A stretch of DNA of 43,803 bases from a phage. Shown piece by piece: positions 4,328-17,088 of this stretch (within the stretch, counting starts at the first letter, position 1; each line of letters begins with the position of its first letter). The translations under genes were made by a program, and so were the position numbers. The DNA is taken from NCBI GenBank assembly GCA_018167155.1, contig GCA_018167155.1_4332.1. One strand, 5' to 3'. The notes beneath the pieces were generated by a model. That model had not been told where the DNA came from. It made no database searches and saw only the letters and a program-made list of their open reading frames with translations.

Positions 4328-4498
4328 ATGACTCAGAATGAGGTAGCTGAGCGTATCGGGGTTACTCGTCGCACGCTTAATAACTGGTTAAAGAGTGGGA
4401 AGTTCCCGGATTGTTGTATTCGCATTATGGGTCGCCGGCAGCCAGGTACGTTCGACCCGGAGAAAGTGGAAGCGTGGATTAAGGAGAATGTGAAATGA
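4328..4498 (+). CDS. AlpA/excisionase-like HTH DNA-binding protein
   Basis: ORF track 4295..4498; ATG at 4328 after GAGGG; motif VAERIGVTRRTLNNWLKSGKFP...VEAWI resembles AlpA-family HTH regulators. Confidence 0.5.
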   Translation: MTQNEVAERIGVTRRTLNNWLKSGKFPDCCIRIMGRRQPGTFDPEKVEAWIKENVK

Positions 4499-4728
4499 CC
4501 GAGTTCCAGTCACGTGTATTTACGGCAGTCGTTTCATTAACCCGTAAAAAAGGGTCGTGCAGCGTTATGGACTTGCGCCGTAGTTATTTTAAGTACTATA
4601 GTTCAGCCATTATTGAAGGGTCGTTACGTGTACTGGTTAAATCCGGTGTCGTGAAAAATGTTGGCGGGAAATATAGTGCCGTTGCCGAAGTTCGCGGAAT
4701 GACCGCTACTTTAGAAGACCTGGAATAA
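4495..4728 (+). CDS. Hypothetical protein
   Basis: 77 aa, ATGA-coupled to the upstream gene. Confidence 0.5.
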   Translation: MTEFQSRVFTAVVSLTRKKGSCSVMDLRRSYFKYYSSAIIEGSLRVLVKSGVVKNVGGKYSAVAEVRGMTATLEDLE

Positions 4729-4787
4729 AAGAAAGCCCCGACGCGGTGAACGCCGAGGCCAAATTACTTGCTGAAGGAATATACAAC

Positions 4788-7028
4788 ATGTCCGATGTAA
4801 TTTTATCCTACTCTTGGTCCCGTCGCAACGCGCGGGCAGAGAAAAAGGATATAAACGTCAGAACCACCCACACGGCAACACTGGACGACCTGAAAGAGTT
4901 AATCCGGCCGCTTGATGCTGTTCGTGGTGGGATTAACCCGAAGACCGCGCCCGGTTATATCACCGCCGCGTGCGACTCGACGCACAGCACCGTAAAAGAC
5001 CCGGAAACAGGGGACTTTAAGCAGGCGCGTAAAGGCTTCTTTTATCGCTGTGATGCGTCTGTAAGCAAATCGTCGCTGGCGTACCTGGACTTTGACAGCG
5101 CAACGCCGGAAGAGTACCAGGAAGCTGTGCGCCTGGTTAAGCGCAGCCGCCAGGCCATGTGCCTCTACACCACGGCATCACATACCGACGAATCGCCGCG
5201 CTTTCGCGTCGTTATGCCGCTGGCCCGTCCGGTCGAAGGTGGTAACATCATCCGTGTTCGCCACGGATTGCTGGAGCACTTCTTCAAAGGCATGGGCGCG
5301 GATCGCAGCGGGTTCACTCTTTCGCAGCCGATGTACCTGCCGCCGGTTGGCTCTACCGTTATCTGGTCGCGCCGCAACGACCTGATTGACCCGGACGAAT
5401 TACTGGAAGGCATCCCGGATTACGAGGTGAGCAGCGCATCTGACTACCAGATACCGGAAGAACTGCGCACTGCATTTACCAACGCATTCGAGGCATTAGC
5501 GTTTGAGTACGGCGGCATCATGACACCCCGCGGCCTTAAGATGCCGGCCACACCAGAACACGCCGAAAACTACAGCGACCCGACGCCGCGCCATGACGAC
5601 TTCCTGCTGTGCTTCCCGCGCGAGGGATATGAAGCGCCGAATGTAACAATGATTCACGACACCGACATTACGGCAACCGAAGGCATGTCACCGAAAGAGG
5701 TGTGGAAATACGCGTGCGATGCGACCGGGCTGCCGTTCGGTGAAGTGGCTGAGGCGATAGGATGGGGCGCACGTGAATCTGCCTCATGCAGCCTTGACGA
5801 CCTGGAAGACGACGAGGACTCAGAGGATGGCGAGCTACCGGAACCAGTAAAGGCTGATTTCATCGTCGAAGGGTACATGCCGTCGGATTGTATCTGGGAT
5901 ATCGTCGGGGAATCTGGCACGTACAAATCGTTCTATACGCTGGGGATGATGTACCTTAGCGCCGCCGGATACCGGTTTGCCGGGGCTGATACCCAGCGTT
6001 GCCACCATTTCTATATCGACGGTGAGGGTGGCGCGGCCACACGTACACGTATTGATGCACTCGCGGCTAAATATGGCGAGGAAGGTAAAGATTACGTACA
6101 TGTCATCGACATGGGCGAAGTTGGAAAACTGAAAAGCCTGATTAAGCTAATGCGCGAAACTGCTGGCGACGAGCCAATTGGGATGGTTGCCTTTGACACA
6201 CTCAACCAGACGCTGGCGCTGACGATTGATAAGTTCGACGAGAATAGTTCATCAACGGCAATCGGCATGGGTAAAGTTATAGCCATCCTGAAAGAAGTTC
6301 GCGACGCGACTAGAGCCGCAGTAGGCGTTGTTCACCACACACCGAAGGGTGGAAAGAAAGCCCGTGGCAGCGGGGCATTGTACGCGGGCGTCGACGTGGA
6401 ACTGACAATCGAACGCGCTACTAACCAACAAATAAACGTATACCACTCAAAATTTAAGCACGGTCCTCAACAGAAAACGGTTGGTATGGTTCTGGAGTCT
6501 GTACAGTTCCGTGAAGCTCCGCCTCCAAAAGAGTACCGCGCGGTTGAGTTCCTCGGTAGCACGGAGGAATACGGCACAATCGTAAACCTCGACCTGCCTG
6601 AGCCGCACAAAGCGCTTGTTCTGATGCCGTGGGGTTTCGAGCCGTTCAAGACCGACGAGGAGAAAGAGCGGGAAGAAGGGCTGACAAAGGAAGGTAAAGA
6701 AAACGTAAAGAATGCCGTAAAACGTGGGAAGGATGAAGGGTGTAAGGAATCAATACTCGCTGCGCTGGAAGACCTGCAGCAGTCCGACGACACTGGACGC
6801 GGTTTCACCCAACGGCAGATAGTAGCGAACTCTGGCGACCACGCCATCACCAACCACCATCTTGAGAAGATGCTGAAAGACGGTGAGTTGATGCTTGGGT
6901 GTGATATTGACGGTGAAGTTATTCCCGGTACATACCGGATACCGGAAAAGATGGGTGACAGATTAAGACCGAAGACAATATACGAACCTAATGAAATGCT
7001 GATAGTTACAGAAGAGGATTTAGAGTAG
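4788..7028 (+). CDS. Primase-helicase-like replication protein (N-terminal AEP primase-polymerase motifs, C-terminal RecA-like P-loop ATPase)
   Basis: ORF track 4746..7028 (GTG); ATG at 4788 after AAGGA. N-terminal LDFDSA (DxD) and ASHTDESPRFRVVMPL (sxH) are AEP primase motifs; C-terminal Walker A GESGTYKS and HHTPKGG suggest a RepA/DnaB-like ATPase. Confidence 0.6.
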   Translation: MSDVILSYSWSRRNARAEKKDINVRTTHTATLDDLKELIRPLDAVRGGINPKTAPGYITAACDSTHSTVKDPETGDFKQARKGFFYRCDASVSKSSLAYLDFDSATPEEYQEAVRLVKRSRQAMCLYTTASHTDESPRFRVVMPLARPVEGGNIIRVRHGLLEHFFKGMGADRSGFTLSQPMYLPPVGSTVIWSRRNDLIDPDELLEGIPDYEVSSASDYQIPEELRTAFTNAFEALAFEYGGIMTPRGLKMPATPEHAENYSDPTPRHDDFLLCFPREGYEAPNVTMIHDTDITATEGMSPKEVWKYACDATGLPFGEVAEAIGWGARESASCSLDDLEDDEDSEDGELPEPVKADFIVEGYMPSDCIWDIVGESGTYKSFYTLGMMYLSAAGYRFAGADTQRCHHFYIDGEGGAATRTRIDALAAKYGEEGKDYVHVIDMGEVGKLKSLIKLMRETAGDEPIGMVAFDTLNQTLALTIDKFDENSSSTAIGMGKVIAILKEVRDATRAAVGVVHHTPKGGKKARGSGALYAGVDVELTIERATNQQINVYHSKFKHGPQQKTVGMVLESVQFREAPPPKEYRAVEFLGSTEEYGTIVNLDLPEPHKALVLMPWGFEPFKTDEEKEREEGLTKEGKENVKNAVKRGKDEGCKESILAALEDLQQSDDTGRGFTQRQIVANSGDHAITNHHLEKMLKDGELMLGCDIDGEVIPGTYRIPEKMGDRLRPKTIYEPNEMLIVTEEDLE

Positions 7029-7029
7029 G

Positions 7030-7056
7030 TAAAAAGAAAGGGGCGTTAAGCCCCTT
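7030..7056. terminator. Hairpin terminator between convergent genes
   Basis: AGGGGC-GTTAA-GCCCCT stem-loop; on the minus strand it is followed by TTTCTTTTT (terminates the XRE gene). Confidence 0.5.
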
Positions 7057-7261
7057 CACCGAACGCCAGCCACTTGGCGTCTACTTCCAGCACTTCCGCC
7101 AGTTTAAACAGCGTTGCCGGGCGGACGTCCTGAGTTACACCGAGCGCAAGTTGGTTAATTGCGCCCTGGGAAACACCAGCCAGGACAGCCAAACGGCGCT
7201 GGGAGATGCCGAGTTCTTTACGGCGTTGTTCTACACGGATGCCTAGTTCAGATGGTTGCAT
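7046..7261 (-). CDS. XRE-family (Cro/CI-type) helix-turn-helix transcriptional regulator
   Basis: 71 aa; LGISQRRLAVLAGVSQGAINQLALG is a classic HTH_3 motif. The only leftward gene inside the rightward operon; SD AAGGAG upstream of the ATG. Confidence 0.75.
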   Translation of the reverse strand: MQPSELGIRVEQRRKELGISQRRLAVLAGVSQGAINQLALGVTQDVRPATLFKLAEVLEVDAKWLAFGEGA

Positions 7262-7281: not shown

Positions 7282-7354
7282 TTGATATGTGAATAGTACC
7301 ATATTAATTATTTTATAAAAGCACATTGACATGTGAATAGTTCGCTATTATAGT
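7282..7354. promoter_or_regulatory. Divergent control region with two copies of the AATAG-N4-CTATT operator-like palindrome
   Basis: Copy 1 AATAGTACCATATT at 7292-7305; copy 2 AATAGTTCGCTATT at 7336-7349 inside TTGACA(7326-7331)-N17-TATAGT(7349-7354), which drives the + gene at 7386. A minus-strand TACTAT over copy 1 may serve the XRE gene. Confidence 0.55.
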
Positions 7355-8498: not shown

Positions 8499-8767
8499 TT
8501 TACCAACTCTACCGCGCCGTTGACAGGCGGGATACCACAGAGGCGTTGTGGCTATTGCGTGCACCGTCAGGTGCGCACCTGATGGAAGAGATGGCGTACT
8601 TAGGCAAAGTACCACGGCCTAAAGATATAGGCCGTCACGTGTCTCAGATTAAGCGCACGACTTTCGCCAAGCCTGACTTTTATGTCTTCGAGTCGATGTA
8701 TGGGTGGGCTATGCACTGCGAACATAAGACACGGCATTTAATTGACCAGTGGGAGAACAGGGCATGA
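8495..8767 (+). CDS. Hypothetical protein
   Basis: 90 aa, ATGA-coupled. Confidence 0.5.
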   Translation: MIYQLYRAVDRRDTTEALWLLRAPSGAHLMEEMAYLGKVPRPKDIGRHVSQIKRTTFAKPDFYVFESMYGWAMHCEHKTRHLIDQWENRA

Positions 8768-10014
8768 TTTTAAAAGAACGCGGTGGCAATAACGATGTGC
8801 ACGCATTACTGTCGCCGTCTGGGGCTAAAAAGTGGCTGGCGTGCAGTGCATCACTGGCCTGTGAAAAAGATATTCCTAACACGTCAGGTAAAGCCGCGGT
8901 ATTAGGCACAGCCATGCATACAATAGCCGAGGTCCATTTAAATCAGTACATCAAAGGCACTGCACTGCCGTTAGAGCGTGAAGTTGGTGCTTATGTACTG
9001 GACGAGGGCAAAGGCCAGATTAAGGCGCTAATCAGTCCGATGAAAGGTGCGGTACTGATTACGGCGGACATGATTGAGCAGGTGCGCAAGTACACCGACT
9101 ACTGCAAAGCGATTATCGATGTGGCGACTTACGCCAAACTCGAGATGCGTGTCAATCTTACTGAGGTGTTGCATCCGGGGTATGAAGGCGTTGAGACGTT
9201 CGGAACTGCTGACCTTGTTGCCGTCCAGGAACTGGCTAACACCGACGAGCACATGCTTATCATCGGCGACCTGAAAACTGGACGGCATCGTGTCGAAGCG
9301 AAAGAAAACAAGCAGCTTATGCTTTACGCGCTAGGTGTTTATCGCAGACTCAAGAGACGTTATAGCATAACAACCGTTCGTCTGGTCATCTTCCAGCCGT
9401 ACGCGGGCGGTGCGTCGGAGTGGGACATCTCGGTTGAAGGCCTGGAACTGTTCGCTAAGTTCGCGCAGAAACGAGCACTGTTAGCGCTTGATGCTTATTC
9501 CCGAGGTAAGAAGAACCTGAAAGCGTCGGACTTCCGGCCGTCTGTCGACGGTTGTCAGTGGTGTCGGTTCTCGGAACAGTGCGCCGCGCGAACAAAAACC
9601 GTTAACGCGGTATTGGCGGAAGAACTGGAAGACGACTTTGCACTGGAACTTACGCCAGAGCAACTTGTAGCTGAGTATGAGAAGTTGCCGTTGTTGCGCC
9701 AGCACATAGACAAGGTTGAGAAAGCGATGGCTGCTGCGTTGCATTCCGGTAAAAAAGTACCGGGGTACAAGCTGGTAGAAGGTCGTCCTGGTAATCGTGC
9801 GTGGAAAGACGCCGATGCGATTGAAGTGTCGCACGGAGACATTCTCAAAAAAGAGGTATTGATGTCCCCTACGGAGGCGGCAAAAGTTCTTTCGGCAGAT
9901 GAGATGGCAGCGCTTGAGCCATTTATCACACGTAAGCCGGGTGCACCATGTGTCGCAACGGCGGACGACAAACGTCCTGAGTGGAATCAGGTAACAGAGG
10001 AGGATTTGGAATGA
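8764..10014 (+). CDS. PD-(D/E)XK nuclease, Cas4/RecB-like (DUF2800 family)
   Basis: ORF track 8749..10014; ATG at 8764. HALLSPSGA N-term, GDLKTGRHRVEAKENKQLMLYALG (D...EAK...QxxxY nuclease motif) and C-terminal CQWCRFSEQC Cys cluster. Confidence 0.6.
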   Translation: MILKERGGNNDVHALLSPSGAKKWLACSASLACEKDIPNTSGKAAVLGTAMHTIAEVHLNQYIKGTALPLEREVGAYVLDEGKGQIKALISPMKGAVLITADMIEQVRKYTDYCKAIIDVATYAKLEMRVNLTEVLHPGYEGVETFGTADLVAVQELANTDEHMLIIGDLKTGRHRVEAKENKQLMLYALGVYRRLKRRYSITTVRLVIFQPYAGGASEWDISVEGLELFAKFAQKRALLALDAYSRGKKNLKASDFRPSVDGCQWCRFSEQCAARTKTVNAVLAEELEDDFALELTPEQLVAEYEKLPLLRQHIDKVEKAMAAALHSGKKVPGYKLVEGRPGNRAWKDADAIEVSHGDILKKEVLMSPTEAAKVLSADEMAALEPFITRKPGAPCVATADDKRPEWNQVTEEDLE

Positions 10015-10254: not shown

Positions 10255-10881
10255 ATGGGAATTAAGCTTAATCTGCGTAAAGTAAACACTGCATGGGTCA
10301 ATGTATTCGAACGCGAAAAAGACCGTGAAAATGATGATGGCTCAATTACTAAAGGCCAGTACAGCGCGACTATTATCCTGCCGTCTGATCATGCTCAAAT
10401 CGACGCACTATACGACACCGTTTACGCTGTAGTTGAAGAGGCGTTAGGTGCAGCCGCTGCCGAGAAGTGGATGAAGTCCAACTACGGTGAAGGTAAGCAC
10501 ATGGATAAATGCGCGATTAAAGACATCGCCGAGCGCGACAATCCGTTTGAAGACTTCCCGGAAGGCTTCTACTTCAAAGCGAAGGCACAGAAACAGCCAC
10601 TGATTGTAACCTCTAAAAAAGGTGAGACTCAGGTAGAGCAGGACTTCAATGTAGACGGCGAACAGATTGAAGGCGAACAGGTTTACAGCGGCTGCGTCGC
10701 TAACGTAAGCGTAGAAATCTGGTTTAGCCAGAAATACAAAGTACTCGGCGTTAACCTGCTGGCGATTAAATACGTCGGCGAAGGTAAAGCATTCGGCGGT
10801 TCTAAAGTCGCCGCAAGCGTCGACGACCTGGAAGATGACGAAGAAGACGAAGCACCGCGCCGCGAACGTCGCCGCCGTTAA
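10255..10881 (+). CDS. Putative ssDNA-binding protein (DUF2815-like) with acidic C-terminal tail
   Basis: 208 aa; context (after DUF2800 nuclease, before polA) and the C-terminal DDLEDDEEDE tail match phage SSB-like DUF2815 proteins. Confidence 0.45.
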   Translation: MGIKLNLRKVNTAWVNVFEREKDRENDDGSITKGQYSATIILPSDHAQIDALYDTVYAVVEEALGAAAAEKWMKSNYGEGKHMDKCAIKDIAERDNPFEDFPEGFYFKAKAQKQPLIVTSKKGETQVEQDFNVDGEQIEGEQVYSGCVANVSVEIWFSQKYKVLGVNLLAIKYVGEGKAFGGSKVAASVDDLEDDEEDEAPRRERRRR

Positions 10882-10898
10882 TATCTGAATCAATTTAA

Positions 10899-10925
10899 CT
10901 AAGGCCCTTCATTGGGCCTTTTTAC
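10899..10925 (+). terminator. Rho-independent terminator
   Basis: AAGGCCC-TTCATT-GGGCCTT stem-loop followed by TTTTTA. Confidence 0.55.
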
Positions 10926-10935
10926 CGGAGTCAGA

Positions 10936-11409
10936 ATGGAACATATAAAAGATTTTCTTAGTTATAACCGAGAAACCGGAATATTCACATGGATACAACC
11001 TACGTACAGACGAGGAAAACCCGGAGACATCGCAGGATGCATCAATAGTAGCGGATACTGGCGAATACCTTATATGGGTAGATATTACATGGCCCACAGG
11101 CTTGCTTGGTTTTTCGAGTACGGTGAATGGCCCGAGGGGCCTCTTGACCACATAAACCGTGACAGGTTAGACAATAGGATTTCTAACCTAAGGAAAGCAA
11201 CCACCGCAGATAATGTGCGAAACGCTAAAAATAAGGGAGCGAGAACGGGAGTTAAGGGAGTAGTTAAAAACGGCAACCGATTTTATGGGCGGGTACATTT
11301 TAACTACAAAAGTTATAACGCGGGCAGCTACGGAACTCTTGAAGAAGCAGAAAGCGCTGTAAAGAAATTAAGAGAAAAACTGCATAAGGAATTTTATTGC
11401 CATGACTAG
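10936..11409 (+). CDS. HNH homing endonuclease with AP2-like DNA-binding domain (paralog 1)
   Basis: ORF track 10912..11409; ATG at 10936. HINRDRLDNRISNLR is an HNH motif; GVKGV...GNRFYGRV...EEA is AP2-like. Confidence 0.7.
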   Translation: MEHIKDFLSYNRETGIFTWIQPTYRRGKPGDIAGCINSSGYWRIPYMGRYYMAHRLAWFFEYGEWPEGPLDHINRDRLDNRISNLRKATTADNVRNAKNKGARTGVKGVVKNGNRFYGRVHFNYKSYNAGSYGTLEEAESAVKKLREKLHKEFYCHD

Positions 11410-13600
11410 TTTATTATACCTGGATACCGAGACATTCTCCGAAGCAGACTTAAAGAAAGTCGGGTCGTATGCGTATGCGGAGCACCCAACGACAGAGGTT
11501 ATAATTTGTACGTATGCCGTTGACGACGGTCCTGTAGAAGTATGGGATTGCACTTCCGAACCAGTAATGCCAATAAGCCTACGCGTGGCGCTCCGTAATG
11601 TTATGCGTGGGCGTATGAAAATCGTGGGCCATAACTTTTTAATGTTCGACCGCCTAATCATGAAACATTGCTGGGGCTTTGATATTCCGGTAAGCAACAC
11701 CATCGATACTATGATTTGGGCGTTTCGTCACGCGCTGCCGGGATCACTTGATGCGTTGTGCGAAGTGCTTGGCGTGTCCGCCGACAATGCGAAAGATAAA
11801 CGCGGCAAGGCGCTGATTCAGCGTTTCTCTAAACCGACACCGAAGAACTACAAAATCCGCCGTTACACCGCCGAAACACACCCGGATGAGTGGGCGCTGT
11901 TCATCAAGTACGCCGTTAGTGACATCACTGCGATGCGTGAAGTCTTCCATAAGCTGCCACGTTGGGGTAACTCCGAGTTCGAAGACCGGGTACTGGAACT
12001 GGACCAGTTAATCAATGACCGTGGGTTTAAGGTCGACGTTGCACTGGCGGAAGCTGCGATTGAAGCAGTGGAGAAGCACAAGGCACAGTTACAGGAAGAA
12101 GCCCAACGAAAATACGGCGGCTCACTTACTGGTAAGGACTTTCTGCCGATTCTGCGTGAACTTGCGCCGGCGCACCGAATCCACAACGCACAGAAGTCGA
12201 CGCTGAATGACCTGTTGGCGGATGATGATTTACCGGACGATGCTCGAACGATTATCGAAATGCGCCTGGGGGCCGCGTCCACTGCGTCAACGAAATATAA
12301 CCCATTGCTGCTGGGCCGCTCGTCTGACGACCGCCGCCGTGGTTGCTTACAGTACGGTGGGGCGAAACGTACTCTGCGGTGGGCGGGTAAAGGCTTCCAG
12401 CCGCAGAACCTGGCGCGCGGGTACTATCACGATGATGAACTGGATAAAGGCATTTCAGCGTTACTTAAAGGCCGCGCGCATCGCCGTTTCGATGTCGCTA
12501 AGCTAACAGCATCAACGGTGCGAAGCTGCATCATACCGGAAGCTGGACATAAGTTTGTCGTTGCCGATTACTCTAACGTCGAAGGCCGTGGGCTTGCGTG
12601 GCTGGCGGGCGAAGAAACCGCGCTTGATACGTTCCGCGCCGGACTGGATATTTATTGCGTAACCGCAGGTAAGATGTTTGGCATGGACCCAGATGATATT
12701 AAGAAAAACTTTAAGGAAATCAGACAGATAGGTAAGGCTTGCGAGCTTGGCCTCGGCTATGAAGGCGGCGTCGGAGCGTTCGTTACGTTTGCTAAAAACT
12801 TAGGTCTTGACCTTATTGAGATGGCAAAAACAATGGACGGTACTTTCCCTGATCATATATGGGCGGCTACCGCACGTGGTTATGAATGGGCGCGTATCCA
12901 GGAAGCAAAGCGACCACCGCATCCTGGTGAAAAGGACGACCGACCATCGTATATTCTGGACAAGAAAGTGTGGCGCACATGCGACGCAATCAAGCGTATG
13001 TGGCGTGAGTCACACCCTGAAACAGTAGCGTTCTGGCGCGACCTTAAAGACGGAATTTTAGCCGCTGTGCGTAATCCTGGTCGTGAATTTTGGGCGGGAG
13101 CACACTTGCGCAGGAATGGCGAGCGCGCTATCCGAATATGGAGAACAGTAGAATTTGATTCATCCGGTAGGAAGGTTCCTGGTTGGTGGTTGTGCGTGGA
13201 GTTGCCGTCGGGCCGTATCCTTTCGTATCCGGGAATCGGAGTTAGCGTGACAAAGGAAACAGACGAAGACGGACGGGTAAACACGAATGTGCGAATCAAG
13301 TACCAAGGTGAAAACCAGTTAACCCGCCAATGGACTACCCTGTACACCCACGGCGGTAAAGCCTGTGAAAACATTGTTCAGGCGCTGTGCCGTGATTTAC
13401 TCGCATATGCGATGGTTAATGTTGAGGGTGGCGGGTATCCCATCGTGCTTTCGGTACACGATGAACTGGTATGTGAAACTCCGGATACGCCCGAGTACAC
13501 GGTGGCTGAACTGGAAAAATTAATGTGCGCGTTGCCTGAGTGGGCGGAGGGGTTCCCTCTTGTAGCGGAAGGTGCGGAGATGAAGCGCTATGCTAAGTAA
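11402..13600 (+). CDS. DNA polymerase, family A, with N-terminal 3'-5' exonuclease domain
   Basis: 732 aa; LYLDTETF (exo I), DYSNVEGRGLAWLAGE (motif A), RQIGKACELGLGYEGG (motif B), VLSVHDELV (motif C). Confidence 0.85.
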   Translation: MTSLLYLDTETFSEADLKKVGSYAYAEHPTTEVIICTYAVDDGPVEVWDCTSEPVMPISLRVALRNVMRGRMKIVGHNFLMFDRLIMKHCWGFDIPVSNTIDTMIWAFRHALPGSLDALCEVLGVSADNAKDKRGKALIQRFSKPTPKNYKIRRYTAETHPDEWALFIKYAVSDITAMREVFHKLPRWGNSEFEDRVLELDQLINDRGFKVDVALAEAAIEAVEKHKAQLQEEAQRKYGGSLTGKDFLPILRELAPAHRIHNAQKSTLNDLLADDDLPDDARTIIEMRLGAASTASTKYNPLLLGRSSDDRRRGCLQYGGAKRTLRWAGKGFQPQNLARGYYHDDELDKGISALLKGRAHRRFDVAKLTASTVRSCIIPEAGHKFVVADYSNVEGRGLAWLAGEETALDTFRAGLDIYCVTAGKMFGMDPDDIKKNFKEIRQIGKACELGLGYEGGVGAFVTFAKNLGLDLIEMAKTMDGTFPDHIWAATARGYEWARIQEAKRPPHPGEKDDRPSYILDKKVWRTCDAIKRMWRESHPETVAFWRDLKDGILAAVRNPGREFWAGAHLRRNGERAIRIWRTVEFDSSGRKVPGWWLCVELPSGRILSYPGIGVSVTKETDEDGRVNTNVRIKYQGENQLTRQWTTLYTHGGKACENIVQALCRDLLAYAMVNVEGGGYPIVLSVHDELVCETPDTPEYTVAELEKLMCALPEWAEGFPLVAEGAEMKRYAK

Positions 13601-13807: not shown

Positions 13808-13998
13808 GCAACAAACCATTTAGTAAGAAACTAGCCGCGTTAGTGGATATGCCAGAATGGGAATTTATCATGGTAATGGGAGATGGGTTCTTTAGTGACG
13901 TTTGTGCAGGATGTACGCACAAAGGTGTTTACTACTCAGAACACGACATCTACCAAGCGTACTTCCTGCGTAACCCGGATGCGGAGCCGTTGTTATGA
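13804..13998 (+). CDS. Hypothetical protein
   Basis: ORF track 13795..13998; ATG at 13804. Confidence 0.45.
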   Translation: MSNKPFSKKLAALVDMPEWEFIMVMGDGFFSDVCAGCTHKGVYYSEHDIYQAYFLRNPDAEPLL

Positions 13999-14492
13999 AA
14001 GCACCAAGTGACGATATAAAAGATTTTCTGTCATACGACCCGGATACCGGGATATTTAAATGGGTCAAGCACAGATGCCAGACCGCGAAACCTGGAGATG
14101 TTGTTACCTACAAGGACCGTAAAGGGTACATATTGTTAGGATGGAATAGGGTGTATTACCGCGCACACAGGCTGGCGTGGTGGTGGGTATACGGAGAGAT
14201 GCCAACTAAGCAAATAGACCATATTAACGGCATACGGGACGATAACCGGATTTGTAACCTACGGCTTGCGGATGAATTTCAACAGAACCATAACCGCAAG
14301 ACCCCAGTTACGAACACCAGCGGCGTGAAAGGGGTTAACTGTAGTAAGCCTCATAATGCTTGGTGTGCTCGAGTTGCTTTTAAAGGTACACGCTATCAGA
14401 TTGGGTATTTCCAGAACCTAAATGAAGCAGAGGAATCGCTGAGAGAATTTAGGGCAAAACTGCACGGAGAGTTTTGCAACCATGGCGACTAA
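13995..14492 (+). CDS. HNH homing endonuclease with AP2-like domain (paralog 2)
   Basis: 165 aa; shares DIKDFLSYD...TGIF.W, AHRLAWW..YGE.P, DHINGIRDDNRICNLR and GVKGV...EEA with the paralog at 10936. Confidence 0.7.
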   Translation: MKAPSDDIKDFLSYDPDTGIFKWVKHRCQTAKPGDVVTYKDRKGYILLGWNRVYYRAHRLAWWWVYGEMPTKQIDHINGIRDDNRICNLRLADEFQQNHNRKTPVTNTSGVKGVNCSKPHNAWCARVAFKGTRYQIGYFQNLNEAEESLREFRAKLHGEFCNHGD

Positions 14493-14991: not shown

Positions 14992-15671
14992 TTGTCTGGT
15001 CATTGTTTGACGGTTCGGGCCTTATGGCCCAACCGTGGGCGGAAGCGGGCCATACTTGCTATTGTTTCAACTACGACGGTGCCGACCACGGCGACTACGC
15101 ACGACTGGGTGCAAAAGTTGAACACGACAATATCCACTATATAAACGCGTGGATTGATAATAAGTTCGACTTCGAGGTTGCGCCGGATATTATTTTCGCG
15201 TTCCCTCCGTGCACAGATTTAGCCGTTAGCGGTGCGGCGCATTTTGAAACGAAGCGGAAGAAGAATCCAACGTTCCAAGTAGAGGCCGTGATTACATGCA
15301 AAGTGGCGGCGCGTCTGGCTAAAAAGTACAACGTACCTTATATGATTGAGAACCCGGTTAGTGTTCTTTCGTCTTTATGGCGTAAGCCGGATTATGTATT
15401 CAACCCGTATGAATACGGTGGTTATTTACCCGAAGACGACACGCATCCAATGTTCCCTGAATACATAAAACCACGGGACGCGTACCCTAAAAAGACATGT
15501 CTTTGGACGGGTAATGGTTTCGTAATGCCAGTTAAGTCATGTGTTGCTTCCAGAGACGGGTACTCTGACCAACACAATAAATTAGGCGGTAAATCGGTGA
15601 GGACAAAAACAATACGCAGCCTTACCCCGCGCGGTTTCGCAAAAGCAGTTTATGAGGCCAATCATGTCTAA
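14988..15671 (+). CDS. DNA (cytosine-5)-methyltransferase-like protein, short form
   Basis: LFDGSG (motif I-like), FAFPPCTDLAVSGAA (PC motif IV) and MIENPVSV (ENV motif VI). Confidence 0.55.
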   Translation: MIVWSLFDGSGLMAQPWAEAGHTCYCFNYDGADHGDYARLGAKVEHDNIHYINAWIDNKFDFEVAPDIIFAFPPCTDLAVSGAAHFETKRKKNPTFQVEAVITCKVAARLAKKYNVPYMIENPVSVLSSLWRKPDYVFNPYEYGGYLPEDDTHPMFPEYIKPRDAYPKKTCLWTGNGFVMPVKSCVASRDGYSDQHNKLGGKSVRTKTIRSLTPRGFAKAVYEANHV

Positions 15672-17088
15672 GTTTCAAAGGCGCGAATACCAGAAAATAA
15701 TGACGTCGTTTATGCTACAGCACCCACGTTGCAATATCTGGTGCGGTATGGGCGGCGGCAAGACCTCGTCGACAATGTGGGTGCTCAACCGACTGTTTCG
15801 CAACGGGCAGCTTACGGACGACGACAGGGTATTAATCCTCGCCCCGCTGCGCGTTGCGTCCGGCACATGGCCCGCAGAACAAGAGAAATGGCGATTCCCA
15901 TGCCTGAGTGTCGTCGATGCAACGGGTTCAGAGAAGCGCCGCATCGCGGCACTGGAGTCGGATGCTAACGTGGTGTGCACGAACTACGAAGTTATCGAAT
16001 GGCTGATTGACTACTACGGCAAAGACGACTGGCCTTTTACGGTTATTGTTGCCGATGAAAGCACGAAACTTAAATCATTCCGCAGCCGTTCAGGTGGTAG
16101 CAAGAGAGCGAAGGCGCTTAGTAAAGTGGCGTTCGGTAAGGTTAAGCGTTTCATCAACCTTACTGGCACCCCGTCGCCGAACGGCCTCAAGGACTTGTGG
16201 GGGCAGAACTGGTTTATCGACGCTGGCGAGCGCCTCGGGTCTTCATACACGGCATTCACCGACCGATGGTTTAACTCGGTACAGAAAGGCAAATCGGCTA
16301 TGGCGCGTGAGTATCATGCGCGCCCGGGTGCGGATACTGAGATTCATCAGAAGATGAAAGACATCAGTCTCACGATTGACGCTGCCGAGTGGTTTGGGTG
16401 TGAAGCACCGATTATTGTACCGGTTGAAATCGACCTGCCGAAGAAAGCACGTCAGGCGTACATCGATATGGAGGAAAAGTTATTCGCGGAACTGGAGAGC
16501 GGGGAAGTTGAAGCGGCTAACGCCGCGGCGAAGACCTCAAAATGCTTGCAGATTGCATCTGGTGCCGTATATGTGACGGGTGAAGACGGGGAAGCAACGA
16601 AAGACTGGGAGAAAGTGCACGACACGAAACTGGATGCGCTCGAGTCAATTGTTGAGGAGCTACAAGGTGCGCCGTTGCTTGTGGCTTATCAGTTTAAGCA
16701 TGAACTGGAGCGCATCCTTAAGCGATTCCCGCAGGCGCAGGCGTTCGCCAAAGGTGCGAAGGGTAATAAGCAGATGGAAGCGTGGAACCGTGGCGAAATC
16801 GAAATCTTATGCGTGCACCCGGCGTCAGCCGGGCATGGTTTGAATTTACAGGACGGCGGGCATCATCTGGCGTTTATTTCGCAAGGCTGGAATCTTGAAC
16901 ACTATTTGCAGGTTGTCGAGCGAATAGGCCCGGTCCGCCAGAAACAGGCAGGACACGAGCGGCCGGTGTTCCTGTACCACATCGTTGCTAAAGACACGCT
17001 GGACGAGGTTGTTGCCGCGCGTACAGACGAGAAGAAATCGGTCCAGGAAGAATTGCTTAATTATATGAAGAGAAGAGGTAAGAAATGA
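15664..17088 (+). CDS. SNF2-family helicase
   Basis: ORF track 15652..17088; ATG at 15664. Walker A CGMGGGKT, VIVADESTKLK, LTGTPSPNGLKDLW and C-terminal GHGLNLQDGGHHLAF helicase motifs. Confidence 0.75.
   Translation: MSKFQRREYQKIMTSFMLQHPRCNIWCGMGGGKTSSTMWVLNRLFRNGQLTDDDRVLILAPLRVASGTWPAEQEKWRFPCLSVVDATGSEKRRIAALESDANVVCTNYEVIEWLIDYYGKDDWPFTVIVADESTKLKSFRSRSGGSKRAKALSKVAFGKVKRFINLTGTPSPNGLKDLWGQNWFIDAGERLGSSYTAFTDRWFNSVQKGKSAMAREYHARPGADTEIHQKMKDISLTIDAAEWFGCEAPIIVPVEIDLPKKARQAYIDMEEKLFAELESGEVEAANAAAKTSKCLQIASGAVYVTGEDGEATKDWEKVHDTKLDALESIVEELQGAPLLVAYQFKHELERILKRFPQAQAFAKGAKGNKQMEAWNRGEIEILCVHPASAGHGLNLQDGGHHLAFISQGWNLEHYLQVVERIGPVRQKQAGHERPVFLYHIVAKDTLDEVVAARTDEKKSVQEELLNYMKRRGKK

What the first reader, a model, noticed from the sequence alone, without database searches (positions are those of the whole stretch)
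4788..7028. Fusion of an AEP-type primase-polymerase domain with a RecA-like ATPase
N-terminal DxD and sxH motifs typical of archaeo-eukaryotic primases are fused to a P-loop ATPase with Walker A GESGTYKS. Together with the DUF2800 nuclease, DUF2815 SSB-like protein and family A polymerase, this gives a largely host-independent replication module.
Basis: partly seen in the sequence, partly recalled or inferred. Interest (0 to 1): 0.4.

Follow-up and report, generated by a model that had tools for sequence, protein, structure and literature searches.

The report
Phage primase-helicase fusion (AEP plus RepA-like)
This gene encodes the replicative primase-helicase of a K1G-like E. coli phage: an archaeal/eukaryotic-type primase domain joined to a ring-helicase motor. 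It is a real but already annotated and ordinary kind of phage replication protein.

Summary
ORF 4788-7028 (+, 746 aa) is intact. The window is a Kagunavirus (Guernseyvirinae) genome, about 90% identical in DNA to phages K1G and K1H, where this gene is annotated "putative helicase-primase" (PHROG 3228, E 4e-298).

- **Neighbours.** The DUF2800 nuclease, Enc34-type SSB and PolA are confirmed.

AEP fused to a RepA-like helicase is a described phage arrangement (Kazlauskas 2016).

Smaller new details:
- a zinc-ribbon-like element that has lost its cysteines;
- a Walker A with Tyr in place of the canonical Gly;
- a predicted C-terminal winged helix;
- domain-by-domain allele swapping within the genus;
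- a shared C-terminal "EDLE" peptide on three early proteins, echoed in the SSB tail.

Interest is low.

The parts
4788..7028 (+). Complete primase-helicase gene (746 aa plus stop)
   Evidence: ORF list and translation. Full-length match to PHROG 3228 'replicative helicase-primase', E 4e-298. About 90% nt identity to annotated Kagunavirus genes.
4788..5432 (+). AEP (archaeo-eukaryotic primase) catalytic domain, aa 1-215; conserved core aa ~85-215
5088..5096 (+). AEP motif I, D101-F-D103 (metal-binding DxD)
   Evidence: conserved in 99% and 98% of 121 homologues. Lies at the end of predicted strand 92-102.
5175..5183 (+). AEP motif II, A130-S131-H132 (sxH), inside the family signature YTTASHT..PRFR
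   Evidence: H132 conserved in 87%, and R140 (nt 5205-5207) in 100%.
5301..5303 (+). AEP motif III aspartate, D172
   Evidence: Conserved in 83% of 121 homologues and invariant among closer relatives. Assignment to motif III is by order and spacing, which is an inference.
5520..5672 (+). Zinc-ribbon-like element (aa ~245-295) with the cysteine ligands lost; H258 and H290 retained
   Evidence: Alignment: the other Kagunavirus allele reads CPNEH...CQHTNNGAC and the remote homologue P0174 reads CPFEVEH...CLHAHC at the same columns. This protein reads ATPEH...MIHDTD. Three short strands are predicted here. Metal binding was not tested.
5787..5843 (+). Acidic inter-domain linker, aa 334-352 (CSLDDLEDDEDSEDGELPE)
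   Evidence: pLDDT <50. The DDLEDD core is conserved across both N-terminal alleles and is shared with the SSB tail.
5844..6467 (+). RecA-fold, RepA/DnaB-like (SF4-type) ATPase domain, aa 353-560
5907..5930 (+). Deviant Walker A, G374-E-S-G-T-Y-K-S381 (Tyr379 replaces the canonical Gly before Lys)
   Evidence: Y or F at this position in this lineage. More distant AAA_25 relatives have canonical GxxGxGK[ST]. G377 and K380 are invariant.
6180..6197 (+). Walker B strand, G465-M-V-A-F-D470, followed by TLN
   Evidence: D470, T471, L472 and N473 are invariant among family members. E413, H517 and G527 are also invariant there; R526 is conserved in most members but replaced in P0123. Motif roles are assigned by analogy with RepA/DnaB, which is an inference.
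6723..6965 (+). Predicted C-terminal winged-helix domain (aa ~646-726)
   Evidence: AF2 C-half model: three helices plus a beta hairpin at aa 655-717, pLDDT 77-85. At least three sequence alleles occur in the genus. No fold search was run on this domain alone, so the assignment is an inference.
7005..7025 (+). C-terminal acidic peptide V-T-E-E-D-L-E-COOH
   Evidence: conserved in Kagunavirus and Jerseyvirus homologues. The identical heptapeptide ends the DUF2800 nuclease.
4495..4728 (+). Upstream 77-aa protein of unknown function, ending ...TATLEDLE-COOH
   Evidence: the EDLE end is conserved while the preceding residues vary. No Pfam hit. PHROG 5169 in a relative.
7046..7261 (-). HTH_3 (Cro/CI-type) regulator, divergent from the downstream replication operon
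   Evidence: Pfam HTH_3, E 2.3e-12.
8749..10014 (+). DUF2800 / PD-(D/E)XK nuclease, ending ...QVTEEDLE-COOH
   Evidence: Pfam, E 2e-68. Tail.
10255..10881 (+). T7 gp2.5-type SSB (Enc34_ssDNA-bd, formerly DUF2815) with tail SVDDLEDDEEDEAPRRERRRR
   Evidence: Pfam, E 8e-16. Translation. Tail conservation.
11402..13600 (+). Family A DNA polymerase with a 3'-5' exonuclease region
   Evidence: Pfam DNA_pol_A, E 8e-18. DNA_pol_A_exo1, E 1e-4, which is just under its cut-off.
15652..17088 (+). SNF2-type (SF2) helicase, the second helicase of the module
   Evidence: Pfam SNF2-rel_dom, E 2.5e-12.

Best explanation
The gene encodes the phage's replicative primase-helicase. I propose the following mechanism.

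- **Helicase.** The central RecA-fold ATPase (aa ~353-560) assembles into a ring, as RepA, DnaB and T7 gp4 do, and moves 5'->3' along the lagging-strand template to unwind the fork.
- **Primase.** The N-terminal AEP domain (aa 1-215) trails the ring and makes short primers on the emerging single strand. It uses two metal ions held by D101, D103 and D172, with H132, R140 and R87 helping to bind nucleotide. The phage family A polymerase then extends the primers.
- **Zinc-ribbon-like element (aa ~245-295).** It probably helps hold template or primer.
- **C-terminal winged helix (aa ~646-726).** It probably binds DNA, possibly the origin.
- **Acidic linker and VTEEDLE tail.** They probably tether the protein to another replisome component, by analogy with the acidic tails of T7 gp4 and gp2.5.

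Shown here: the intact ORF, both folds, motif conservation, family membership and gene context. Inferred: ring assembly, polarity, primer chemistry, and the roles of the zinc-ribbon-like element, the winged helix and the tail.
For: - **Family and annotation.** Full-length PHROG 3228 'replicative helicase-primase', E 4e-298. Relatives at ~90% nt identity are annotated helicase-primase or replicative helicase.
- **Catalytic motifs.** D101 99%, D103 98%, H132 87%, D172 83%, R140 100%, R87 99% of 121 homologues. These residues stay conserved in the second Kagunavirus allele, which is only ~20% identical overall; of these, R87, D101, D103, R140 and D172 are strictly invariant.
- **Partner domains.** Remote homologues pair this domain with PriCT_1/2, D5_N/DUF5906, VapE, DUF3987 and AAA_25.
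- **Context.** The gene lies in an operon with a PD-(D/E)XK nuclease, a T7-type SSB and PolA.
- **Literature.** RepA-like helicases are often fused to AEP in phages, for example BFK20 gp43 (PMC4889955). AEP-ZnBD/PriCT-helicase-WH architectures are described in PMC5862659.
Against: - No biochemical data exist for this family.
- I could not inspect model coordinates, so clustering of D101, D103, H132 and D172 into one active site is not verified.
- The Walker A lacks the canonical Gly before Lys (Y379), which could alter or weaken NTP binding.
- The C-half model is only moderately confident (pLDDT 65.5).
- No iteron array that would mark an origin was found near the gene.
Confidence: 0.85

Rival explanations
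1. The AEP domain works as a true primase-polymerase. It would start DNA chains with dNTPs and extend them substantially, like NrS-1 or pRN1 ORF904 enzymes, acting as a replication initiator rather than as a classical short-RNA primase serving PolA.
For: The best structural matches are PrimPol-type enzymes: S-2L PrimPol, Prim-PolC, RepB' and CAPP. Many AEPs of mobile elements make DNA primers (PMC5862659). A C-terminal winged helix would fit an origin-binding initiator.
Against: The phage encodes its own family A polymerase with a proofreading region, so long extension by the AEP is unnecessary. Nothing in the sequence distinguishes NTP from dNTP use. This is a variant of the main explanation, not an exclusive alternative.
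Confidence: 0.25
2. The N-terminal domain is a catalytically dead AEP relic that serves only as a DNA-binding or scaffolding module. Priming would then come from host DnaG.
For: No curated model recognises the domain. Its zinc-ribbon-like element has lost the cysteines present in the other allele.
Against: All three catalytic motifs, plus R87 and R140, are the best conserved positions across 121 distant homologues, and they persist in a 20%-identical allele. Dead domains usually lose these positions first.
Confidence: 0.05
3. The P-loop domain is not a fork helicase. It would instead be a RecA/RadA/KaiC-like recombination or regulatory ATPase, or it would be inactive because of the deviant Walker A.
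Against: The Pfam match is to AAA_25, the RepA-like family. RSF1010 RepA has the highest sequence identity among the top hits, at 19%. Fusion to a primase and position in a replication operon are the recognised signature of replicative helicases (PMC4889955). K380, E413, D470 and H517 are invariant. The other helicase in the window is SNF2-type, which is not a usual fork helicase.
Confidence: 0.07

Closest known systems
Helicase-primase of Kagunavirus/Jerseyvirus phages (PHROG 3228; e.g. Escherichia phages K1G and K1H 'putative helicase-primase')
   Same: Same gene. Full-length profile match at E 4e-298. About 90% nt identity. Same position upstream of the HTH regulator, DUF2800 nuclease, SSB and PolA.
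   Different: Only allelic differences. This window carries one of two N-terminal primase alleles and one of at least three C-terminal alleles found in the genus.
AEP fused to RepA-like SF4 helicase in phages, exemplified by corynephage BFK20 gp43 (as cited in Kazlauskas et al. 2016, PMC4889955)
   Same: Same overall architecture and predicted role: N-terminal AEP primase and C-terminal RepA-like ring helicase.
   Different: Homology to gp43 itself was not tested here. This protein adds a cysteine-less zinc-ribbon-like element, a winged helix and an acidic EDLE tail.
T7 gp4 primase-helicase
   Different: The primase domain is AEP (RRM-like fold), not DnaG/Toprim, so the catalytic domains are not homologous. 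The tail ends in DLE rather than an aromatic residue. A winged-helix domain is added.
Cyanophage S-2L PrimPol AEP domain (PDB 6zp9)
   Different: Only 13-14% sequence identity. No sequence-level link was detected.
PrimPol-PV1 supergroup architectures (PrimQH and All3500 families; Kazlauskas et al. 2018, PMC5862659)
   Same: The order AEP, then PriCT or Zn-binding domain, then RepA/DnaB/VirE/DUF3987 helicase, then winged helix is the one seen here. RepB', a member of that supergroup, is a top-5 structural hit.
   Different: The defining motif IV arginine after motif III is not evident. The conserved residues there are Q180, Y183 and P185. Membership is untested at profile level.
RSF1010 RepA hexameric helicase (PDB 1g8y) / Pfam AAA_25
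   Different: RepA is a stand-alone helicase with a canonical P-loop. Here the Gly before the P-loop Lys is Tyr, and the domain is embedded in a four-domain protein.

Membership tests
AEP (archaeo-eukaryotic primase) superfamily | AEP catalytic fold (RRM-like core) | tested here: met
AEP (archaeo-eukaryotic primase) superfamily | Motif I: hhhDhD/E at the end of a beta-strand | tested here: met
   L-A-Y-L-D101-F-D103 at the end of strand 92-102. Conserved in 99% and 98% of 121 homologues.
AEP (archaeo-eukaryotic primase) superfamily | Motif II: sxH | tested here: met
   A130-S131-H132. H conserved in 87%. Nearly invariant in closer sets.
AEP (archaeo-eukaryotic primase) superfamily | Motif III: hD acidic residue completing the metal site | tested here: inconclusive
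   D172 is conserved (83%, invariant in closer sets) and lies in the right order.
AEP (archaeo-eukaryotic primase) superfamily | Template-dependent de novo primer synthesis | not testable with these tools
   Needs a biochemical assay.
Pfam Prim-Pol (PF09250) and other curated AEP models | Sequence match above the curated threshold | tested here: not met
   No Pfam or NCBIfam hit to aa 1-345, even at E<=10. Of 64 remote homologues, one touches BT4734-like_N, at E 3e-4.
RepA-like SF4 helicase (Pfam AAA_25) | Profile match above the gathering score | tested here: met
   63.5 bits against a cut-off of 27, E 2.7e-17, aa 351-522.
RepA-like SF4 helicase (Pfam AAA_25) | RecA-fold core resembling ring helicases | tested here: met
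RepA-like SF4 helicase (Pfam AAA_25) | Canonical Walker A GxxxxGK[ST] | tested here: not met
   The sequence is GESGTYKS. Tyr379 replaces the Gly before Lys, and Y or F is conserved in the lineage. Lys380 and Ser381 are present.
RepA-like SF4 helicase (Pfam AAA_25) | Walker B Asp, catalytic Glu, sensor His, Arg finger | tested here: met
   D470, E413 and H517 are invariant. R526 is conserved in most members. Roles are assigned by analogy.
RepA-like SF4 helicase (Pfam AAA_25) | Hexameric ring and 5'->3' unwinding | not testable with these tools
   Needs biochemistry or cryo-EM.
Pfam DnaB_C (PF03796) | Profile match | tested here: not met
   No hit at E<=1 for this protein.
PHROG 3228 replicative helicase-primase | Full-length profile match | tested here: met
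   E 4e-298. Residues 1-746 match profile positions 1-766 of 766.
PrimPol-PV1 supergroup (Kazlauskas 2018) | Motif IV 'Rh' arginine downstream of motif III | tested here: inconclusive
   The conserved positions after D172 are Q180, Y183 and P185, with no conserved Arg. The invariant arginines R87 and R140 lie elsewhere. No profile comparison with that supergroup was possible.

The most novel reading that the evidence does not exclude
The C-terminal peptide [TS]-x-[ED]-[ED]-D-L-E-COOH may be a common docking tag that assembles the replisome of this phage group around one receptor. The tag is carried by three otherwise unrelated early proteins: the 77-aa protein, the primase-helicase and the DUF2800 nuclease. 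It is echoed as DDLEDDE in the SSB tail and in the primase-helicase linker. The receptor would most plausibly be the family A polymerase or the SSB's DNA-binding cleft. This would extend the T7 acidic-tail principle from two proteins to a small network that includes a nuclease.
Probability: 0.35. Interest if true: 0.45.

Novelty: already known. Interest (0 to 1): 0.22.

Why it matters
As stated, the finding confirms a textbook-style phage replication module: AEP primase fused to a RepA-like helicase, alongside a T7-type SSB, a PD-(D/E)XK nuclease and PolA. The gene has been annotated in K1G-like phages since their first genome records (GenBank GU196277/GU196278), so it opens no new question.

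Its practical value is twofold:
- The N-terminal domain belongs to a sizeable AEP family (127 representative clusters) that has no Pfam or NCBIfam model and no solved structure. Automated annotation therefore often labels these genes only 'AAA family ATPase'.
- Natural domain swaps within one genus, plus the shared EDLE tail, offer ready-made material for studying how primase, helicase, nuclease, SSB and polymerase are coupled in a small replisome.

Tried and rejected
- **Word-indexed homologue search, N-terminal domain:** only 3 proteins, too few for a profile.
- **Word-indexed homologue search, 40-sequence core alignment:** only 4 proteins, too few for a profile.
- **PDB sequence searches:**
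  - The single sequence found nothing real.
  - The untrimmed alignment A2 hit VapE and the NrS-1 helicase only through partner domains of the homologues, not through the primase domain.
  - The trimmed core profile A3 gave only a spurious hit to a designed Kelch repeat.
- **Pfam and NCBIfam on N-terminal, middle and C-terminal pieces:** nothing apart from AAA_25, which scored on the whole protein. The cysteine-containing allele and remote homologues also showed no Zn-domain model.
- **afdb50 fold library:** not available.
- **C-terminal domain profile against PDB:** only a non-significant match (E ~0.3) of aa ~722-742 to the E. coli NusG linker and first KOW strand. I rejected it as evidence of mimicry.
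- **Search for iterons or an origin next to the gene:** only two-copy repeats, most likely tandem promoters or operators at 7282-7350.
- **Genomic context of more distant homologues P0041 and P0123:** contigs were too short or too different to test whether the tail motif reaches beyond Guernseyvirinae.
- **Longer GTG start at 4746:** rejected, because homologues and annotated relatives start at the ATG.
Full report
**What the window is.** The window is a near-complete genome of a K1G-like E. coli siphophage (Kagunavirus, Guernseyvirinae). Megablast of the target gene finds 97 phage records at 80-95% identity, nearly all Escherichia or Kagunavirus. The gene under those matches is annotated 'putative helicase-primase', 'replicative helicase-primase' or 'replicative DNA helicase'. 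The first 25 kb of the window aligns at ~91% to phages ULINTec2, K1G and K1H.

**The observation.** ORF 4788-7028 (+) is uninterrupted and encodes 746 aa.
- A longer GTG start at 4746 exists, but homologues and annotated relatives begin at the ATG.
- The neighbouring genes are as described: DUF2800/PDDEXK_1 at 8749-10014, Enc34_ssDNA-bd (formerly DUF2815) at 10255-10881, and DNA_pol_A at 11402-13600, flanked by two HNH genes.
- An HTH_3 regulator (7046-7261, minus strand) and an SNF2-type helicase (15652-17088) complete the module.

**Curated domain searches.** Pfam recognises only AAA_25 (aa 351-522, E 2.7e-17, 63.5 bits against a cut-off of 27). NCBIfam recognises nothing. PHROGs gives a full-length match to phrog_3228 'replicative helicase-primase' (E 4e-298), with weaker matches of aa 87-215 to primase and helicase phrogs. 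Pfam scans of the N-terminal, middle and C-terminal pieces at E<=10 found nothing, so the AEP claim had to be tested another way.

**Is the N-terminal domain an AEP? Remote homology.**
- An exhaustive phmmer search with aa 1-345 against 1.84 billion representatives found 127 proteins at E<=1e-3. Most share aa ~85-215.
- In a 121-sequence alignment the best conserved positions are R87 (99%), D101 (99%), D103 (98%), Y127/T128/T129/S131, H132 (87%), R140 (100%), D172 (83%), Q180, Y183 and P185.
- This is the order and spacing of AEP motifs I (DxD), II (sxH) and III (hD), embedded in a family signature LDxD ... YTTxSHTxExPRxR ... D......Q..Y.P.
- A Pfam scan of 64 of these homologues shows that the unrecognised N-terminal domain is joined to DUF5906 (15 members), VapE-like (11), AAA_25 (10), PriCT_2 (6), DUF3987 (3), D5_N (3), PriCT_1 and Zn_Ribbon_Prim. 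These are the partner domains described for AEP primases of viruses and mobile elements (PMC5862659; PMC4889955).

**Is the N-terminal domain an AEP? Predicted structure.**
- An AlphaFold2 model of aa 1-345, built from a 29-sequence alignment, has mean pLDDT 81.4, with values of 90-97 across most of the catalytic core.
- Foldseek independently gives 6zp9 at E 8e-6, probability 1.0, followed by other AEPs.
- Sequence-only PDB searches found nothing real.
- I conclude the domain has the AEP fold with an intact catalytic signature. I could not check that the motif residues cluster in space, because model coordinates are not exposed.

**The ATPase.**
- A model of aa 346-746 is of moderate confidence (pLDDT 65.5 overall, 70-89 in the ATPase core).
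- K380, E413, D470-T-L-N and H517 are invariant among family members.
- Together with the AAA_25 match, this is a RepA/DnaB-like SF4-type motor.
- One departure: the P-loop reads GESGTYKS, with Tyr379 where the canonical Gly precedes Lys. Tyr or Phe is conserved there in this lineage, while more distant AAA_25 relatives have GxxGxGK[ST].

**Other parts of the protein.**
- **Zinc-ribbon-like element, aa ~245-295.** It forms three short strands. In the alignment, a second Kagunavirus allele has CPNEH...FVCQHTNNGAC here and the remote homologue P0174 has CPFEVEH...CLHAHC. This protein has ATPEH258...MIH290DTD293. This looks like a primase-type zinc ribbon that has lost its cysteines. The inference comes from the alignment only.
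- **Acidic linker, aa 334-352.** It is disordered.
- **Predicted winged helix, aa ~655-717.** It is predicted with pLDDT 77-85 as three helices plus a beta hairpin. A sequence profile of this region finds no solved relative.
- **Overall order.** AEP, Zn-binding element, RepA-type helicase, winged helix is the order reported for PrimQH and All3500-type proteins (PMC5862659).

**How it most likely works.** By analogy with RepA, DnaB and T7 gp4 (established knowledge of SF4 helicases), I propose the following.
- The ATPase forms a ring that translocates 5'->3' on the lagging-strand template.
- The N-terminal AEP domains prime the extruded strand for the phage family A polymerase.
- The SSB coats the single strand.
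- The winged helix may bind the origin or duplex DNA.

All of these steps are inferences. No origin-like iteron array was found beside the gene.

**Comparison with what is known.** Kazlauskas et al. [quoted passage not shown] The gene is therefore a member of a known, annotated family and a known architecture. It is functionally analogous to T7 gp4, but its primase domain is not homologous to the T7 one.

**Side observations.**

1. **Domain-wise mosaicism.**

| Homologue | N-terminal half | ATPase | C-terminal domain |
|---|---|---|---|
| P0043 | 20% | 98% | 82% |
| P0004 | 96% | 98% | 44% |

A third C-terminal allele also exists.

2. **A shared acidic tail.**
- Three proteins of the window end in the same peptide: the 77-aa ORF 4495-4728 (...TATLEDLE), the primase-helicase (...IVTEEDLE) and the DUF2800 nuclease (...QVTEEDLE).
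- The SSB tail (SVDDLEDDEE...) and the primase-helicase linker (SLDDLEDDED) share DDLEDD.
- In a six-frame scan these are the only occurrences of those patterns.
- The tails are conserved in the Kagunavirus and Jerseyvirus loci examined, even where the preceding residues differ.
- The two VTEEDLE tails use different codons at four of seven positions. This points to selection on the peptide rather than a recent DNA duplication.
- By analogy with the acidic tails of T7 gp4 and gp2.5, and with the acidic tail of the Enc34 SSB (PMC5686142), this may be a common docking motif. The receptor is unknown.

**Verdict.** The feature is already known and ordinary for this phage group. Its interest is low, apart from the minor structural departures and the shared tail motif.

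Noticed in passing
window 4705-4725, 7005-7025, 9991-10011; also 5796-5816 and 10822-10842: Three unrelated early proteins end in the same peptide: the 77-aa ORF (TATLEDLE*), the primase-helicase (IVTEEDLE*) and the DUF2800 nuclease (QVTEEDLE*). The SSB tail and the primase-helicase linker share DDLEDDE. The motif is conserved across the Guernseyvirinae loci examined. The two VTEEDLE tails use different codons. This may be a common docking motif, with an unknown receptor.
   Followed up: partly
window 4788-7028, compared with homologues P0004, P0043, P0059: Alleles are shuffled domain by domain within one phage genus. The ATPase core stays 96-98% identical, while the N-terminal primase half exists in two forms only ~20% identical. 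The C-terminal winged-helix region exists in at least three forms (44% identity or less). Breakpoints lie at the acidic linker and just before the winged helix.
   Followed up: partly
window 5520-5672 (aa 245-295): A zinc-ribbon-like element has lost its cysteines: ATPEH...MIHDTD here, against CPNEH...CQHTNNGAC in the other Kagunavirus allele and CPFEVEH...CLHAHC in a remote homologue. Whether it still binds a metal is unknown.
   Followed up: partly
window 5907-5930 (aa 374-381): The Walker A GESGTYKS has Tyr379 where the near-universal Gly precedes the P-loop Lys. Tyr or Phe is conserved at this position in the lineage. More distant AAA_25 relatives are canonical.
   Followed up: partly
window 6951-7013 (aa ~722-742): The C-terminal stretch GDRLRPKTIYEPNEMLIVTE resembles E. 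coli NusG residues ~117-137 ([20 protein letters not shown]), with 11 of 20 identical. The profile-vs-PDB E-value is only ~0.3, so this may be chance.
   Followed up: no
window 7282-7306 and 7326-7350: A 25-nt direct repeat (TTGAYATGTGAATAGT...) occurs in two copies 44 nt apart. It lies in the gap between the divergent HTH_3 regulator gene and the downstream replication genes. The copies look like tandem promoters or operator sites.
   Followed up: no
window 10840-10878: The T7-type SSB ends with a strongly basic run (APRRERRRR) after its acidic stretch. SSB tails are usually acidic to the very end. The basic run is conserved in relatives.
   Followed up: no
window 10912-11409 and 13995-14492: Two HNH_3 homing-type endonuclease genes bracket the family A polymerase gene. 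The first overlaps the polymerase start by 8 nt.
   Followed up: no
phage records OR061068 (CR01), OR061069 (M01), PQ474795: In some deposited relatives the primase-helicase is annotated as two 'replicative DNA helicase' CDSs. In CR01 the first is the 456-aa product P0001, and the match there is 16 nt longer. This suggests a frameshift or a sequencing error in those records.
   Followed up: no
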